A stretch of DNA of 20,000 bases from an uncultured virus (IMG/VR IMGVR_UViG_3300008624_000002) (taxonomy: Duplodnaviria > Heunggongvirae > Uroviricota > Caudoviricetes), in IMG/VR virus record IMGVR_UViG_3300008624_000002. One strand, 5' to 3'. Below, one piece after another: positions 1-3,019 of this stretch; the first letter of the stretch is position 1; each line of letters begins with the position of its first letter. The position numbers and the translations under genes were made by a program. A model generated the notes under the pieces. The model was not told the origin of the DNA and did not search any database. It saw nothing but the letters and a program-made list of their open reading frames with translations.

Positions 1-2
1 AC

Positions 3-191
3 ATGTCAAACTTGCAGACAGATGTTGATGATGCATCGGCATCTGCCCAAACACCAGGTGGTTCGAGCTCCAACACAGCTATGAATATTGATTCATCATC
101 ACATACAGATGTCCGCTATGAAAAGACTCCGGATATGATTGATAGAGGCCTTGAGTTTGCAACAGCAACTCCTTCTGGTAAACTTGGTTAA
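3..191 (+). CDS. 3' end of a gene entering from the left (Ser/Thr/Asn-rich C-terminus; possibly a late structural/tail protein)
   Basis: Frame is open from the window edge to TAA 189-191 and converges on the minus-strand block. Product is a guess from context only. Confidence 0.4.
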   Translation: MSNLQTDVDDASASAQTPGGSSSNTAMNIDSSSHTDVRYEKTPDMIDRGLEFATATPSGKLG

Positions 192-313
192 CTCTTATAC
201 TTTCTCTTTCGAGGAATAACTTTCGTTTTATCTTTATGCACCTGAGTAGATGCATGTGAAGGTGTTTCTTTACGAGACTTTAGTTCACGCTTTGTAGTTC
301 TTATTAATTTCAT
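188..313 (-). CDS. 41-aa basic peptide, ArfA-like ([41 protein letters not shown])
   Basis: Translated by hand. ATG at 313 overlaps the bS21 stop (TAATG); stop at 188-190. The C-terminal HKDKTKxxxRKRKYK resembles the ArfA basic motif. Confidence 0.65.
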   Translation of the reverse strand: MKLIRTTKRELKSRKETPSHASTQVHKDKTKVIPRKRKYKS

Positions 314-558
314 TAATACATCCAGCGTTGTCTAGGACGACTTTCTTTTTCTCGTTTGATGGCATCAAGCTTCTTCTTTCTTTTGAGTGCTTGATTCTTT
401 TGATTCTTTACGACATTTGGTTTAGTGTAGTATTGTCTATCTCTACATTCTTGAACTATACCTTTTCTCTCACAGGCCTTTTTAAACCTACGAAGAAGCT
501 GGTCGAAGTTTTCGACCCTTTTCGATTTTGGATGTCTTCTTGGCGAAACACTTGTCAT
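313..558 (-). CDS. rpsU: 30S ribosomal protein bS21 (phage-encoded)
   Basis: [12 protein letters not shown]...[15 protein letters not shown] is the bS21 signature; basic C-terminal helix ending RQRWMY. Confidence 0.93.
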
Positions 559-575
559 AATTCATTTTCTTAAAT

Positions 576-730
576 GGTGTGAAGTCGCCCCAACGCTTAC
601 AGCAACCCGCTCTTCACCGATTATCCCGCTTGATTTTGCCGATAATCTTTCCCCTACTTCGATACCCCCATATCCACGGCCGAAGTCTGTAGTTGCAATC
701 AAAGGACACATTATAAACACAACTACACCC
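576..730 (-). ncRNA. Putative structured RNA/leader of four abutting stem-loops between gp32 and bS21
   Basis: Inverted repeats 688-695/720-727, 656-661/681-686, 619-625/641-647 and 579-584/612-617; GC-richer than the flanks; no long ORF. Confidence 0.6.
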
Positions 731-738
731 TATAGAAA

Positions 739-1644
739 TTAGCTTTCTGTAGCTAACTTCTTAAAGTAATCCATCGCATTATCTTCATCTGAATCACCTA
801 CCGATGTAGATTCCGCTGATGAGATTACAGGTTCTTCTGCTACTGTTTCAGTATTCACGCCAGACCATGGCACTTCTTCCATGTCTTCAGCAACTGATTC
901 AGCAGTAGAGTTTGCAACGCCACCTGATAGTCCAAGAACTCTATCGAGTTTTGTTTTCAAGTCTTCATATGACTTGAACTGGTCAGGTGAAATTATATCC
1001 GTTAATGAATGAGTTGAATTATTTATATCATTCAACTGATTTTCATCATCAAAAAGTGGTGCTTGGGCATCGAATTCTGACTTGTCATAGTTCCAATAAC
1101 CATCTACTTTTCTGATTTTGATTTTGAAGTTCGCACCTTCTTCTCTTAAGTCGAAAGGATTGATAGCACTCTCATCTTCAAATGCAGGAGAGATTGCCTC
1201 TTTTAGCATTTCAAAGATTTTTTTACCATAACGGTACATGAACACTTTACCTTCATTATCAGGATTTTTAGGGTCAGAAACAACATAGATGTTTGACACA
1301 TAATGAAGTCTACGCTTCTGTTTACGAGCCAATTCTCTGTTTGCTTCTATTCCAGTGTTCCACAACGAGGTGTTGTAGTCACTTACAGGGTCTTTCTTAC
1401 CAATGGTAGTCAAAGACTTTTCAATATACCATCCACCTGGACCTTGAAATCCATGGTCGAAGTAAGATACCCATGGCATCTCTTCGTCATTTGGTGTTGG
1501 TAAGAAACGAACTACTGCGTATCCGTTACCACTCTTATCGAGTTCTGGTTTCCAGTAGTTATCATCGTTGTAGGATTTTTTATCACCTTGAGCTGGTGAT
1601 GCAGACTCCATGGCCTGTCTAAGCTTATCTAAAGATGTTGACAT
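739..1644 (-). CDS. 32: T4-like single-stranded DNA-binding protein gp32
   Basis: WKPELDKSGNGYAVVRFLP, HGFQGPGGWYIE, GKVFMYRYGKKIF, GANFKIKIRKVDGYWNYDKSEF; acidic tail ending YFKKLA. Confidence 0.97.
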   Translation of the reverse strand: MSTSLDKLRQAMESASPAQGDKKSYNDDNYWKPELDKSGNGYAVVRFLPTPNDEEMPWVSYFDHGFQGPGGWYIEKSLTTIGKKDPVSDYNTSLWNTGIEANRELARKQKRRLHYVSNIYVVSDPKNPDNEGKVFMYRYGKKIFEMLKEAISPAFEDESAINPFDLREEGANFKIKIRKVDGYWNYDKSEFDAQAPLFDDENQLNDINNSTHSLTDIISPDQFKSYEDLKTKLDRVLGLSGGVANSTAESVAEDMEEVPWSGVNTETVAEEPVISSAESTSVGDSDEDNAMDYFKKLATES

Positions 1645-1691: not shown

Positions 1692-2438
1692 TTATAACTC
1701 GGATTCAAAGCACGCCGTGCCGAGAATCCACCTATCATCGATATTAAATCGAGATATAATTCCATTATACTCAATCTTATCGAATCCGTCAATGGGGTTT
1801 TTGAAAAATAACTCCACATCTGGATACTCCTTATTTATGTGTTCCAACAACGCAATAAATTGTGCTTGTTGCGGTCTTCCCACACCTGAGTTCTCTTCTG
1901 TATAGACTGTATTGTATGTATAACAATCATCTGGTCCATATATGTTTTGTAAATCTCCGAACTGTAATGAATCATATCCTAATAAACATATCTTATTATG
2001 TCCATGGTGGACAGCATATCCTAATGCATATATTCCAGCAAAGGTGTTCTTGAGGAGTTCATTTGTATATATAACTATGTTGTTGACATAGGAAAAAGAA
2101 TATCCAATCATATAACTCCTCTGTCCTTCTCCCCTATAATTCTCTCCTTGGACTACAAATCTATCATCGTCTGGCAATCGATTCTCTACTACTTCTCCTG
2201 GCAATCCGTGTTTCATCATGTCCCACATCTCCATAGGAATCTCATTCCACTCGCCTACGCAGACTCTATGTTTCTTATACCATTGGTCTGTAATCATTTC
2301 ATTCTGAGGTGCAACATCTTGAACAAACAATAAGTCTGGTGTGTAGTCACGATATATCATATTCATTCCCCACCAATTGTCTAATTCGTTTAAATCGACA
2401 TTCTTTCTTGATGGTCCATTTCCGACTAGGTAGAGCAT
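1692..2438 (-). CDS. Hypothetical protein with N-terminal VGNGPSR Rossmann-like motif (MptE/Maf/glycosyltransferase-like)
   Basis: LVGNGPSR...WGMNMIYRD..PDLLF..D and ICLLGYD motifs, typical of this phage family. Confidence 0.6.
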   Translation of the reverse strand: MLYLVGNGPSRKNVDLNELDNWWGMNMIYRDYTPDLLFVQDVAPQNEMITDQWYKKHRVCVGEWNEIPMEMWDMMKHGLPGEVVENRLPDDDRFVVQGENYRGEGQRSYMIGYSFSYVNNIVIYTNELLKNTFAGIYALGYAVHHGHNKICLLGYDSLQFGDLQNIYGPDDCYTYNTVYTEENSGVGRPQQAQFIALLEHINKEYPDVELFFKNPIDGFDKIEYNGIISRFNIDDRWILGTACFESEL

Positions 2439-3019
2439 AGTTTTATTAGTTTCTGTTTGTAAGTATTCTTGTTATAAGATATAAATGATTTATACTTATT
2501 AATTTTGTTTATCGTTTCTGGATATATCAATGTTTCGGTAATCAGTGTGTTCCACTTCTTACTGTATTCTGTTATATCATCTAGAATACACATTGTTTCT
2601 AAAGATATCTTCTTACCTAAGAACTGTTTCAAGAGATAAGGGTGTTGTCCCTTATTGACTGTTAGTACCTCTTGTATAGTTTTCTTCTCTAATAGTTTTG
2701 TGACATCTTGTTCGAACTGATAAGTGAGTCGTTGGTTTCTTTTCTTCCATTCTAAGTATACTTTCTTAGATTCGTTATCAAGTAAATCTCCCACCCACTT
2801 ATCCTTTAATGATAAGTTTGCAACATAGAAATTTAGTAGTTCACTCTTGTATAATCTTGAGAGTTTACCAAAGTGAAATCTGTCATTGCGTTTCAGGAAG
2901 GAGGGTAAGTCTGCTTTGACTTTACCGTTATACTTTATAAAGTCATATGACTCAGAATGAAAATGTAATTTTATTCCGAGATATAACTGATAACTATCAA
3001 ATCCTTCCCGACTTGACAT
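2426..3019 (-). CDS. 59: T4-like helicase loader gp59
   Basis: YLGIKLHF..SYDFIKYNGK, FLKRNDRFHF.KL, ISLETMCILD; located between 33 and 32. Confidence 0.93.
   Translation of the reverse strand: MSSREGFDSYQLYLGIKLHFHSESYDFIKYNGKVKADLPSFLKRNDRFHFGKLSRLYKSELLNFYVANLSLKDKWVGDLLDNESKKVYLEWKKRNQRLTYQFEQDVTKLLEKKTIQEVLTVNKGQHPYLLKQFLGKKISLETMCILDDITEYSKKWNTLITETLIYPETINKINKYKSFISYNKNTYKQKLIKLCST

What the first reader, a model, noticed from the sequence alone, without database searches (positions are those of the whole stretch)
188..558. Phage ribosome module: bS21 translationally coupled to an unannotated ArfA-like 41-aa peptide
Seen: the bS21 stop overlaps the ATG (TAATG) of a 41-aa very basic ORF ending VHKDKTKVIPRKRKYKS. 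Known: phages carry bS21, and bacterial ArfA uses a basic KKGKGSYxRKxKH segment to occupy the empty mRNA channel and recruit RF2. Inference: this is a two-gene cassette that remodels host ribosomes (bS21 swap plus rescue, release or mRNA-channel blocking). The canonical KGKGS is absent, so the peptide may be a divergent rescue factor or an inhibitor.
Basis: partly seen in the sequence, partly recalled or inferred. Interest (0 to 1): 0.8.

Follow-up and report, generated by a model that had tools for sequence, protein, structure and literature searches.

The report
Phage bS21 plus truncated ArfA-like peptide
Right behind its own ribosomal protein S21 gene, a marine T4-like phage carries a real 41-residue gene that is a stripped-down, very distant relative of the bacterial ribosome-rescue factor ArfA, and an uncatalogued folded RNA sits in front of the pair, which together look like a small kit for handling host ribosomes.

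Summary
bS21 lies at 313..558(-) (Pfam 1.6e-13). Its stop overlaps, in TAATG, the ATG of a 41-aa ORF at 188..313(-) with pI 11.2.

The ORF is a real gene under purifying selection. It is a rare N-terminally truncated form of a ~65-aa family found only in viral DNA here (867 clusters). That family follows bS21 in 70 of 80 loci.

No direct test links the peptide to ArfA: Pfam ArfA gives 0 of 197 relatives, BLASTP gives nothing, and hhalign gives 0.4%. A chain of intermediates does link it:
- Long form vs the pelagiphage HTVC027P gp30 family, which carries an ArfA domain: hhalign 93.5%.
- gp30 family vs ArfA: 97.2%.
- Two single proteins bridge the tail types: J2-1 passes both Pfam ArfA and DUF7230, and L132 scores 27.5 bits on the peptide-core profile.

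Chained alignments place the peptide opposite ArfA's A-site and mRNA-tunnel segment. KGKGS and the N-terminal part that activates RF2 are missing. Ribosome binding is inferred, not shown.

The "cassette" is lineage-specific synteny. The family also occurs without bS21, and stop/start overlaps are common in this genome.

A ~150-nt structured RNA (579..726, strong covariation, no Rfam match) precedes bS21 and co-occurs with it. I rate this a new variant of a known kind, interest about 0.6.

The parts
313..558 (-). Phage ribosomal protein bS21, 81 aa
   Evidence: PF01165 50.6 bits, E 1.6e-13; phrog_21469; best solved relative E 2e-10
188..313 (-). 41-aa basic ORF. It is the N-terminally truncated ('short') form of a ~65-aa phage family. 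Its core RKETPSHASTQVHKDKTKVIPRK is DUF7230-like and stands opposite the ArfA domain.
   Evidence: ORF; family alignments A1/A2/A4; purifying selection; 66.2 bits on the core HMM, to which it contributed a row; exact sequence on 21 contigs
311..315 (-). TAATG stop/start overlap between bS21 and the 41-aa ORF
   Evidence: Among 48 unique bS21-to-family arrangements, 26 have the family start overlapping the bS21 stop. In 19 of the 21 with a gap over 30 nt, an ATG overlaps the bS21 stop. In the loci whose ORFs I listed, that ATG opens a small TM ORF.
579..726 (-). Structured RNA core of four stems. The conserved block is about 559..738, between the gp32 stop and the bS21 start.
   Evidence: Alignment A6 of 28 sequences; RNAalifold gives 32 pairs, 20 with double changes; controls; stem coordinates; no Rfam family; no tRNA or tmRNA
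739..1644 (-). gp32 single-stranded-DNA-binding protein, the upstream gene of the same strand block
   Evidence: PF08804 E 2.2e-38; phrog_224 E 4e-105. The only sigma-70-like site upstream on this strand is at 1792..1764, 11 of 12 matches.
3..191 (+). End of a convergent ORF (62 aa as listed) whose stop overlaps the stop of the 41-aa ORF by 4 nt
   Evidence: no Pfam or PHROG match

Best explanation
The 41-aa ORF is an expressed phage gene. It is a minimal, N-terminally truncated member of a viral small-protein family whose conserved core descends from the ArfA domain, with a DKTK-type tail in place of KGKGS.

By chained alignments (inference), its residues about 13-26 (SRKETPSHASTQVH) stand opposite ArfA His21-Glu30, which lies in the ribosomal A site. 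Residues 27-41 (KDKTKVIPRKRKYKS) stand opposite ArfA 31-48, which fills the empty mRNA tunnel.

Most likely mechanism (inferred, not shown): the peptide binds host ribosomes whose mRNA tunnel is vacant, such as non-stop complexes or idle subunits, which should be plentiful once a lytic phage degrades host mRNA. It would act there as a sensor or rescue-type factor, made together with phage bS21 from one transcript by termination-reinitiation at TAATG.

The short form lacks both ArfA's hydrophobic N-terminal part and the N-module of its long relatives, so RF2 activation by this form is doubtful.

Shown here: it is a gene, the family and its synteny, and the remote homology chain. Inferred: ribosome binding, the site of binding, and any release activity.
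For: Gene and family:
- Third-position variation and pN/pS 0.20 over the core.
- 867 clusters at E<=0.01 among 1929 candidates; 975 representatives at E<=1e-3.
- Short forms recur as separate variants next to bS21 genes 83-88% identical to the window's.

Homology chain:
- Long form A2 vs gp30 family: 93.5%, 47 columns. gp30 family vs 11 ArfAs: 97.2%, 34 columns.
- HTVC027P gp30 has the same two-part build, W-G-S-R...Y...W-RIF followed by an ArfA domain. The paper says it carries PF03889 and is highly expressed early and late (PMC12753301, passages).
- Domain-only steps: core vs DUF7230-like 84.4%; DUF7230-like vs Y-tail ArfA domains 88.4%; Y-tail vs ArfA 72.3%; Y-tail vs KGKGS-type 98.8%.
- Bridging proteins: J2-1 passes ArfA (41.3 bits) and DUF7230 (28.6 bits) and scores 20.2 bits on the core HMM, with 0 of 1000 shuffles reaching it. 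L132 scores 27.5 bits, 0 of 1000. Six of 6 DUF7230-like viral ORFs score 16.7-20.7 bits on the core HMM; the four I scanned score 46.2-63.9 bits on Pfam DUF7230.
- The family's invariant residues (R38 K39 T41 P42 H44 Q48 H50 D52 T54 K55 of L009) lie mostly in the stretch opposite ArfA 21-35.

Context:
- bS21 lies directly upstream in 70 of 80 loci, and the bS21 stop is overlapped by an ATG in 45 of 48 unique arrangements.
- No promoter-like or terminator-like site on the minus strand between 188 and 739.

ArfA roles are taken from PMC5378476 (passages).
Against: - Every direct test fails. Pfam ArfA gives 0 of 48, 0 of 149 and none for the peptide. The PDB profile search finds no ArfA. BLASTP gives none. 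Core vs ArfA gives 0.3-0.4%. Core vs the whole gp30 family gives 0.7%.
- The 93.5% long-form link is carried largely by the N-module, which the window peptide lacks.
- Core vs Y-tail ArfA domains drops from 49% to 2.4% when L132 is left out.
- The window peptide does not hit Pfam DUF7230, and my own small DUF7230-like HMM gives it only 5.3 bits.
- The shared stretch is short and basic, so convergence is possible.
- KGKGS and ArfA's hydrophobic N-terminal region are absent.
- AlphaFold gives no fold: pLDDT 66, pTM 0.24, one helix, and that helix is in the N-module.
- The family occurs without an adjacent bS21 in 10 of 80 loci.
- Among short forms alone dN/dS is 0.57-0.74, on 9-10 substitutions.
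Confidence: 0.45

Rival explanations
1. Tunnel plug rather than rescue factor. The short peptide keeps only the ribosome-binding part of an ArfA-type protein. It occupies vacant mRNA tunnels without recruiting RF2. That would either block host rescue or initiation, or park idle ribosomes for later phage use.
For: The short form lacks the N-module present in 46 of 49 unique variants, and it lacks ArfA's N-terminal region, whose folding is coupled to RF2 opening (PMC5378476, passages). The stretch opposite ArfA's hydrophobic NAIEALL is charged (ELKSRKE). Ribosomes carrying a viral bS21 were about 5% active in vitro (PMC6375957, passages), so inhibitory remodelling has precedent.
Against: There are no binding data. 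The segment opposite ArfA 25-29, the strand that pairs with RF2, is the best conserved part of the family, which fits a specific partner rather than a plain plug. A plug would hit phage translation as well.
Confidence: 0.2
2. This is a small basic phage protein with a role unrelated to ribosomes, such as nucleic-acid binding or a virion or replication accessory. Its place behind bS21 is inherited gene order at the end of the gp32 block, and the ArfA likeness is convergence of short lysine-rich motifs.
For: The family sits after gp32, or after other genes, without bS21 in 10 of 80 loci. Stop/start overlaps are common in this genome. All direct ArfA tests are negative. [quoted passage not shown]
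Against: Long form and gp30 family share architecture in register over the full length (93.5%). Two proteins bridge the tail types with order-specific scores. From the RNA side, 60 of 61 loci carry bS21 and 61 of 61 carry the family.
Confidence: 0.25
3. The window's short form is a decaying remnant of the ~65-aa gene and no longer functions.
For: Only 3 of 49 unique variants are short. Short-vs-short dN/dS is 0.57-0.74. The new N-terminal 12 codons evolve fast (pN/pS 0.65).
Against: The frame, the start overlap and the core are intact in three separate short variants. The exact protein lies on 21 contigs, and its cluster has 16 members of 41-47 aa. Atlas clusters of 42-44 aa with 134, 68 and 201 members rank first; this is a lead only.
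Confidence: 0.08
4. This is a chance ORF and not a gene.
For: It is short, and the window peptide matches no Pfam family by itself.
Against: Codon-position pattern and pN/pS; hundreds of homologous clusters.
Confidence: 0.02

Closest known systems
ArfA (alternative ribosome-rescue factor A, Pfam PF03889; E. coli ArfA read from NC_000913.3)
   Same: Both are small and very basic. By chained alignments the peptide's TP-H...QVHKDKTK...RKRKYK stands opposite ArfA P23-K44, the A-site mid-region plus the mRNA-tunnel tail. The phage protein J2-1 joins both motif types in one chain.
   Different: There is no KGKGS and no hydrophobic N-terminal part. No member of the family reaches, or even appears for, the Pfam ArfA model. 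Direct profile comparison gives 0.3-0.4%. No function has been tested.
Phage ArfA-domain proteins: Pelagibacter phage HTVC027P gp30 (PMC12753301), Citromicrobium phage RXM g10 (PMC8953757), Pseudoalteromonas phage J2-1 ATN93434
   Same: The long relatives share gp30's two-part build and align with the gp30 family at 93.5%. In the gp30 family, 10 of 45 unique members carry Y-type tails in place of KG[KR]GS.
   Different: gp30 is not next to a bS21 gene; it lies beside the small terminase subunit. The window form lacks the N-module. The mid-region differs (RKETPSH vs NPVAKEVRTPKY). These phage proteins are annotated and, for gp30, transcript-profiled, but not biochemically tested according to the passages I read.
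Pfam DUF7230 (PF23876), family of unknown function
   Same: The DKTKY-RK core. 8 of 48 relatives at E<=10 and 8 of 149 at E<=0.1 hit the model, all the located matches in the C-module, and one (P0198, 27.3 bits) is over the cut-off. Profile comparison gives 84-88%. The Atlas ranks a 40%-DUF7230 cluster 18th for the window peptide at 0.89, a lead only.
   Different: The window peptide itself gives no DUF7230 hit. Bona fide members start with a KKNPV-type hydrophobic stretch that the peptide lacks. No paper mentions DUF7230.
Phage-encoded bS21 of marine myoviruses (HTVC008M: Mizuno et al. 2019, PMC6375957; pelagimyophages: PMC7029224)
   Same: A phage copy of bS21 in a T4-like marine genome. The literature asks what extra viral factors it needs.
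   Different: Here bS21 has constant neighbours, a structured RNA upstream and an ArfA-derived gene downstream. tblastn of the long form against GenBank phages found no relative at E<=1. That search has a low-complexity filter and may leave out near-identical records.
OLE RNA, which binds bS21 through an SD/anti-SD mimic (PMC12054373) - relevant to the upstream RNA only
   Same: It is a precedent for a structured non-coding RNA that binds free bS21.
   Different: I saw no CCUCC-type mimic in the phage RNA (my reading of alignment A6). There is no similarity to 16S rRNA. The RNA is about 150 nt, against more than 600 for OLE. Binding is untested.

Membership tests
bS21 (PF01165) - for ORF 313..558 | Match to the family model above the curated cut-off | tested here: met
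   50.6 bits vs 27, residues 15-62 on model positions 7-54 of 55; 27 solved bS21 chains at E<=1e-3
ArfA (PF03889) | Match to the Pfam ArfA model above 25.5 bits | tested here: not met
   Window peptide: no family at E<=10. ArfA appears for 0 of 48 relatives at E<=10 and 0 of 149 at E<=0.1. The six-frame search of the nearest virus record gives 0 matches. Positive controls: 8 of 8 phage ArfA-likes pass at 25.7-72.5 bits.
ArfA (PF03889) | KGKGS motif ahead of the basic tail | tested here: not met
   The peptide has KDKTK at the equivalent place. Long relatives carry GGKGS, but in the N-module, at a different position.
ArfA (PF03889) | Positively charged C-terminal segment of about 18 residues (ArfA 31-48) that fills the mRNA tunnel | tested here: inconclusive
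   The composition fits: by my count of the translation, 8 K/R in the last 15 residues (whole peptide pI 11.2). Placement in the tunnel cannot be tested here.
ArfA (PF03889) | Hydrophobic N-terminal region that folds on RF2 and activates it (aa 2-16 and onward) | tested here: not met
   The 12 residues ahead of the core are KLIRTTKRELKS, and the stretch opposite NAIEALL is charged. ArfA roles are from PMC5378476.
ArfA superfamily (remote homology) | Significant profile-profile links through intermediate families, in register | tested here: inconclusive
   Long form vs gp30 family 93.5%, and gp30 family vs ArfA 97.2%. Domain-only steps give 84.4%, 88.4% and 72.3%. But the core against ArfA, or against the whole gp30 family, gives 0.4-0.7%, and 49% falls to 2.4% without L132.
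ArfA (function) | Binds non-stop 70S and recruits RF2 for stop-independent release | not testable with these tools
   This needs biochemistry or cryo-EM.
DUF7230 (PF23876) | Match to the model above 27 bits | tested here: not met
   Window peptide: none. Relatives: 8 of 48 and 8 of 149 are weak hits, and only P0198 passes, at 27.3 bits.
gp30-type phage ArfA-domain proteins (N-module + ArfA domain) | Two-part architecture: W-G-(K)S-R...Y...W-x-IF, followed by the ArfA-type domain | tested here: not met
   The long relatives meet it. The window form has lost the N-module, and no separate copy lies in the 20-kb window (best E 0.92) or in the 59.7-kb nearest record (one match only, profile positions 26-65).

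The most novel reading that the evidence does not exclude
Abundant marine T4-like phages keep a three-part ribosome-takeover block:
- A roughly 150-nt structured RNA that binds or regulates phage bS21.
- The phage bS21 itself.
- An ArfA-derived protein with no KGKGS.

Under this reading the 41-aa form is a natural minimal ArfA core. It senses or plugs the empty mRNA tunnel without the RF2-activating part. Together with the bS21 swap it would decide which host ribosomes are freed for, or withheld from, translation during infection. It would also be a candidate for the 'additional viral factor' that Mizuno et al. suggested phage bS21 may need.
Probability: 0.15. Interest if true: 0.85.

Novelty: new variant of a known kind. 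Interest (0 to 1): 0.62.

Why it matters
Phage bS21 is the commonest virus-encoded ribosomal protein, and its role is open. In vitro, E. coli ribosomes carrying a viral bS21 were about 5% active, and the authors suggested that extra viral or host factors may be needed (PMC6375957, passages). A later survey stated that S21 is not part of any gene cluster (PMC7029224, passages).

In this lineage bS21 has constant neighbours: a covarying RNA upstream and an ArfA-derived small protein downstream. That gives two concrete candidates to test. It also extends the ArfA superfamily to a large viral branch without KGKGS that current models miss, and it gives Pfam DUF7230 a working hypothesis. The 41-aa form is a natural truncation that could separate ribosome binding from RF2 activation.

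My searches found no paper describing this linkage. They cover only the held open-access library.

Tried and rejected
- Direct ArfA tests, all negative: PDB profile search (one de novo protein at E 0.7); hhalign of the family against a single ArfA and against ArfA alignments (0.1-2.5%); BLASTP.
- GKGS...NWE in the N-module against ArfA KGKGS...NWE: 20 columns, 40% identity, but only 0.7% probability. I keep it as a curiosity only.
- A recalled idea that the GKGS start might resemble ribosomal protein Thx: no such family appeared in any Pfam scan.
- Atlas: a viral cluster that is 88% PF03889 ranks 15th at 0.84. I used this as a lead only.
- Cultured phages: tblastn of the peptide and of the long form (only a Bacillus phage at E 0.6), and blastn of the RNA, found nothing.
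- Prokaryote genomes: 19 stretches matched the pattern and 1 was a relative. It is a 121-kb contig binned as Sphingobacteriales that carries gp32, a methylase, bS21, a TM ORF and the family, so it is a phage contig.
- RF-1 domain in the nearest virus record: none, but the record is only 33% complete.
- Expression: contigs of four RNA libraries (four studies) cover gp32 and the RNA element, starting between 577 and 642 and running upward. Nothing lay on 1..570. From contigs this says nothing about bS21 or the peptide.
- RNA as a 16S mimic: local alignment score 18 against a shuffle mean of 19.9; 275 of 300 shuffles reach it.
- Rfam: only noise. ARAGORN: none.
- Single-sequence fold of the RNA: z = -0.96. 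The support for the RNA comes from covariation.
- The 295-aa gene between the RNA and bS21 in some loci is a DNA methylase (PF01555, E 3.7e-23), not an rRNA enzyme.
- The third homologue search, with the core alone, listed only family members without Pfam.
- Complex prediction: not used, because I do not claim that the peptide binds bS21.
- Failed calls: own assembly not held; alignment A4 too loose for a genome scan (repeated with A1); script bug (fixed).
Full report
**1. What is there**

The window is a T4-like marine phage. gp32 lies at 739..1644(-) (PF08804, E 2.2e-38) and a gp59-type helicase loader at 2426..3019(-).

On the same strand, ORF 313..558 is ribosomal protein bS21 (PF01165, 50.6 bits). 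Its TAA shares TAATG with the ATG of a 41-aa ORF at 188..313. That ORF is very basic: 15 K/R, pI 11.2.

The scan finds no sigma-70-like promoter or intrinsic-terminator-like site on the minus strand between 188 and 739. The one good promoter-like site lies upstream of gp32 at 1792..1764.

The 27 bases before the ATG hold no GGAG, GAGG or AGGA (my reading). Reinitiation at the overlap is therefore the plausible way the ORF is translated. This is inference.

Such overlaps are frequent in this genome, so the overlap alone is not evidence of a functional pair.

**2. It is a gene, and a truncated one**

A scan of viral contigs with bS21 gave 17 loci.
- Fifteen of them show a homologous ORF after bS21.
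- The other two are cut at the locus end. The same contigs show the ORF in loci L018 and L094.

In most relatives the ORF is about 65-70 aa. It has an N-module (W-H-G-G-K-G-S-K-R-R ... Y-x-D-N-W-E-K-I-F-G-K) followed by the core R-K-E-T-P-S-H-x-x-T-Q-V-H-K-D-K-T-K.

The window form keeps only the core, behind a new 12-residue start. Of 49 unique DNA variants recovered from 84 of 98 sources, 3 are short and 46 are long.

Selection is purifying:

| Measure | Value |
|---|---|
| Summed entropy, codon positions 1/2/3 | 29.3 / 19.6 / 64.0 |
| pN/pS, core (window vs 48 variants) | 0.20 |
| pN/pS, N-module (45 long forms) | 0.18 |
| pN/pS, new start of the short form | 0.65 |

The three short variants are almost identical in nucleotide sequence across the core: none or one of the 23 core codons is changed in protein. 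Yet their bS21 genes are only 83-88% identical to the window's. This points to recent mosaic exchange.

The family is large and was found only in viral DNA here:
- 867 clusters at 90% identity.
- 975 representatives at 50% identity. Many carry only the N-module or only the core, so these are two separable modules.
- 248 relatives in viral contigs.
- One hit among 185,579 species genomes, and that is a phage contig.
- No relative in GenBank phages.

The exact 41-aa protein is in public gene calls on 21 contigs, named only 'hypothetical protein'.

**3. Link to bS21**

- bS21 lies directly upstream on the same strand in 70 of the 80 best loci. One locus has it 2.5 kb away and nine have none within 3 kb.
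- In those ten loci the gene follows gp32, or a 64-aa ORF plus a small membrane ORF.
- Among 48 unique bS21-to-family arrangements, the family start overlaps the bS21 stop in 26. One has a 1-nt gap.
- In the 21 arrangements with a gap over 30 nt, an ATG overlaps the bS21 stop in 19. In the loci whose ORFs I listed, the gap holds a roughly 39-aa membrane ORF.

The adjacency is strongly conserved in this lineage but is not obligatory.

**4. Is it ArfA-like?**

Directly, no:
- Pfam ArfA does not appear for the peptide or for any of 48 + 149 relatives.
- A profile search of solved structures finds no ArfA.
- BLASTP against E. coli ArfA finds nothing.
- Core profile vs ArfA profiles gives 0.3-0.4%.

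Indirectly, yes.

(a) Weak DUF7230 (PF23876) hits fall on the core in 8 of 48 and 8 of 149 relatives, and one passes the cut-off.

(b) tblastn with E. coli ArfA finds 12 records in the phage collection. Eight ArfA-like ORFs read from them all pass Pfam ArfA. One of them, from Pseudoalteromonas phage J2-1, ends in R-V-E-R-D-K-T-K-Y-R-R-K instead of KGKGS.
- It passes both ArfA (41.3 bits) and DUF7230 (28.6 bits) on overlapping residues.
- It scores 20.2 bits on my core HMM; no shuffle of 1000 reaches that.
- The other 11 ArfAs score 4 bits or less.

(c) Six DUF7230-like viral ORFs score 16.7-20.7 bits on the core HMM. The four I scanned score 46-64 bits on Pfam DUF7230.

(d) Pelagibacter phage HTVC027P gp30 is said by its authors to carry an ArfA domain and to be highly expressed early and late (PMC12753301, passages). 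It has the same two-part build as the long form: an N-module-like start (K-W-D-G-R-S-R-P ... Y-K-E-E-W-N-R-I-F) followed by the ArfA domain.

(e) The gp30 family has 229 relatives in viral contigs. I kept 80 loci, which gave 45 unique proteins. The profile comparisons:

| Comparison | hhalign probability |
|---|---|
| Long-form family vs gp30 family (47 columns, E 2.3e-7) | 93.5% |
| gp30 family vs 11 ArfAs (34 columns, E 3.8e-11) | 97.2% |
| Core vs DUF7230-like | 84.4% |
| DUF7230-like vs Y-tail ArfA domains | 88.4% |
| Y-tail ArfA domains vs ArfA | 72.3% |
| Y-tail vs KGKGS-type ArfA domains | 98.8% |
| Core vs Y-tail ArfA domains | 49% |
| Core vs Y-tail ArfA domains, without L132 | 2.4% |

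(f) Inside the gp30 family the tail varies: KG[KR]GS in 32, KKxY[ND]RK in 9, DKTKY in 1 (L132), other in 3. L132 scores 27.5 bits on the core HMM, and 0 of 1000 shuffles reach that.

I read this as probable remote homology, about three in four. The caveats are that the strongest link rests on the N-module, which the window form lacks, and on a few bridging sequences.

**5. What the homology implies**

Chaining the two alignments puts window P18 opposite ArfA P23, H20 opposite F25, Q24-H26 opposite R28-E30, and K27-S41 opposite K31 onward.

In the E. coli structures (PMC5378476, passages):
- His21-Glu30 lies in the A site.
- Residues 25-29 pair with an RF2 strand.
- Residues 31-48 fill the vacant mRNA tunnel.
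- The N-terminal residues 2-16 fold only when RF2 opens.
- Truncation after Met40 abolishes activity.

The family's invariant residues cluster in the part opposite ArfA 21-35. The peptive therefore looks like the ribosome-contacting half of an ArfA-type factor without the activating half.

AlphaFold gives no fold for the long form (pLDDT 66). It predicts one helix in the N-module and a disordered core, as expected for a peptide that folds only on RNA.

My best explanation, at 0.45, is that it binds ribosomes whose tunnel is vacant. Whether it still triggers RF2 or merely occupies the site is open. The rivals are a plug (0.2), an unrelated basic protein whose position is just synteny (0.25), and a remnant (0.08).

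**6. The neighbour nobody asked about**

The stretch 559..738, listed mechanically as a 52-aa ORF, is a structured RNA.
- It is conserved at 70-97% identity across loci.
- An alignment of 28 sequences folds into four stems with 32 pairs, 20 of them with compensatory double changes.
- 98.3% of cells pair, against 30-49% when partners are slid by 1-3 columns.
- 20 pairs show double changes, against 3-6 in the slid controls.
- 0 of 500 shuffles reach the observed score.
- G-U pairs fit the gene strand.
- The stems span 726..579.

No Rfam family, tRNA or tmRNA matches it.

Co-occurrence with bS21:
- The RNA is present in 87 of 100 sources.
- It is absent from all 10 loci that lack an adjacent bS21. 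Three further loci lack the upstream DNA needed to tell.
- In 17 of the 60 the RNA is more than 150 nt from bS21. In the loci I looked at, a DNA methylase gene fills that gap.

Contigs from RNA libraries of four studies join the end of gp32 to this element. One of them stops at 579, the last paired base. This is a weak hint about the 3' end, and DNA carry-over is possible.

I found no 16S likeness. Binding to bS21 remains a hypothesis.

**7. Verdict**

- Known already: phage bS21, and ArfA-domain genes annotated in phages.
- New here:
  - A large viral ArfA-derived branch without KGKGS that current models miss.
  - Its conserved place behind bS21.
  - A natural 41-aa minimal form.
  - A covarying RNA in front of bS21.

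Searches for prior description found none in the held library. Subscription journals and the papers' supplements were not seen.

Noticed in passing
window 559..738 (-), stems 726..579: An uncatalogued structured RNA lies between gp32 and bS21. It has four stems, and 20 of its 32 pairs show compensatory changes. It co-occurs with bS21: 60 of 61 loci from the RNA side, and it is absent from all 10 family loci without an adjacent bS21. The 52-aa 'ORF' 562..720 listed by the ORF finder is this RNA.
   Followed up: yes
L007:2734-2853, L009:2734-2853, L108:2879-2998; L064:2841-2996: In the loci whose ORFs I listed, a 39-aa single-pass membrane ORF sits between bS21 and the ArfA-like gene. 21 of 48 unique arrangements have a gap of over 30 nt at that place, and in 19 of them an ATG overlaps the bS21 stop. 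A similar 51-aa membrane ORF precedes the family in loci without bS21. Its function is unknown.
   Followed up: partly
P0186, P0172, P0230, P0263, P0143, P0144: The N-module (WHGGKGS...NWEKIFGK) is a promiscuous module. It occurs alone (31-60 aa) or ahead of other parts: a glutaredoxin domain in P0186 and more weakly in P0172, and long cysteine-rich C-terminal parts in P0230 and P0263. The core also occurs behind other N-terminal parts, some of which may be gene-call fusions (P0143, P0144).
   Followed up: partly
L104 (Salmonella phage Arash), L103 (Roseobacter phage CRP-212), L102 (Pseudomonas phage pf16), L106 (Ralstonia phage RsoM2USA): ORFs that pass Pfam ArfA are misnamed or missing in the deposited records. 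Arash gp99c is called 'ribosomal protein L2'. The CRP-212 ORF lies within the span of a large annotated CDS. The pf16 and RsoM2USA ORFs have no same-strand CDS of their own, only opposite-strand 'hypothetical' genes that overlap them.
   Followed up: partly
L013:1612-2499 and like loci: In the loci I listed, a 295-aa N6/N4 DNA methylase (PF01555, E 3.7e-23) lies between the RNA and bS21. In 17 of 60 RNA-retrieved loci the RNA and bS21 are more than 150 nt apart.
   Followed up: partly
L017:2739-2921: Here the family ORF has no ATG. It seems to start at a TTG 7 nt inside the end of bS21, giving M-G-K-G-S-K-R-R.
   Followed up: no
window 188..313 vs L003, L005, L006: The core of the short form is nearly identical in nucleotide sequence between phages whose bS21 proteins are only 83-88% identical to the window's, and the C-terminal tails of those bS21 proteins differ. 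This suggests recent recombination of this small gene.
   Followed up: partly
window 579 (table 8): One RNA-library contig (X15, 640 nt) runs from inside gp32 and stops exactly at the last paired base of the RNA's fourth stem. This could be a 3' end or terminator, but it is a single contig, so the hint is weak.
   Followed up: no
L064:2666-2860: In loci without bS21, a conserved 64-aa basic ORF with no Pfam match occupies the place of bS21 ahead of the membrane ORF and the family.
   Followed up: no
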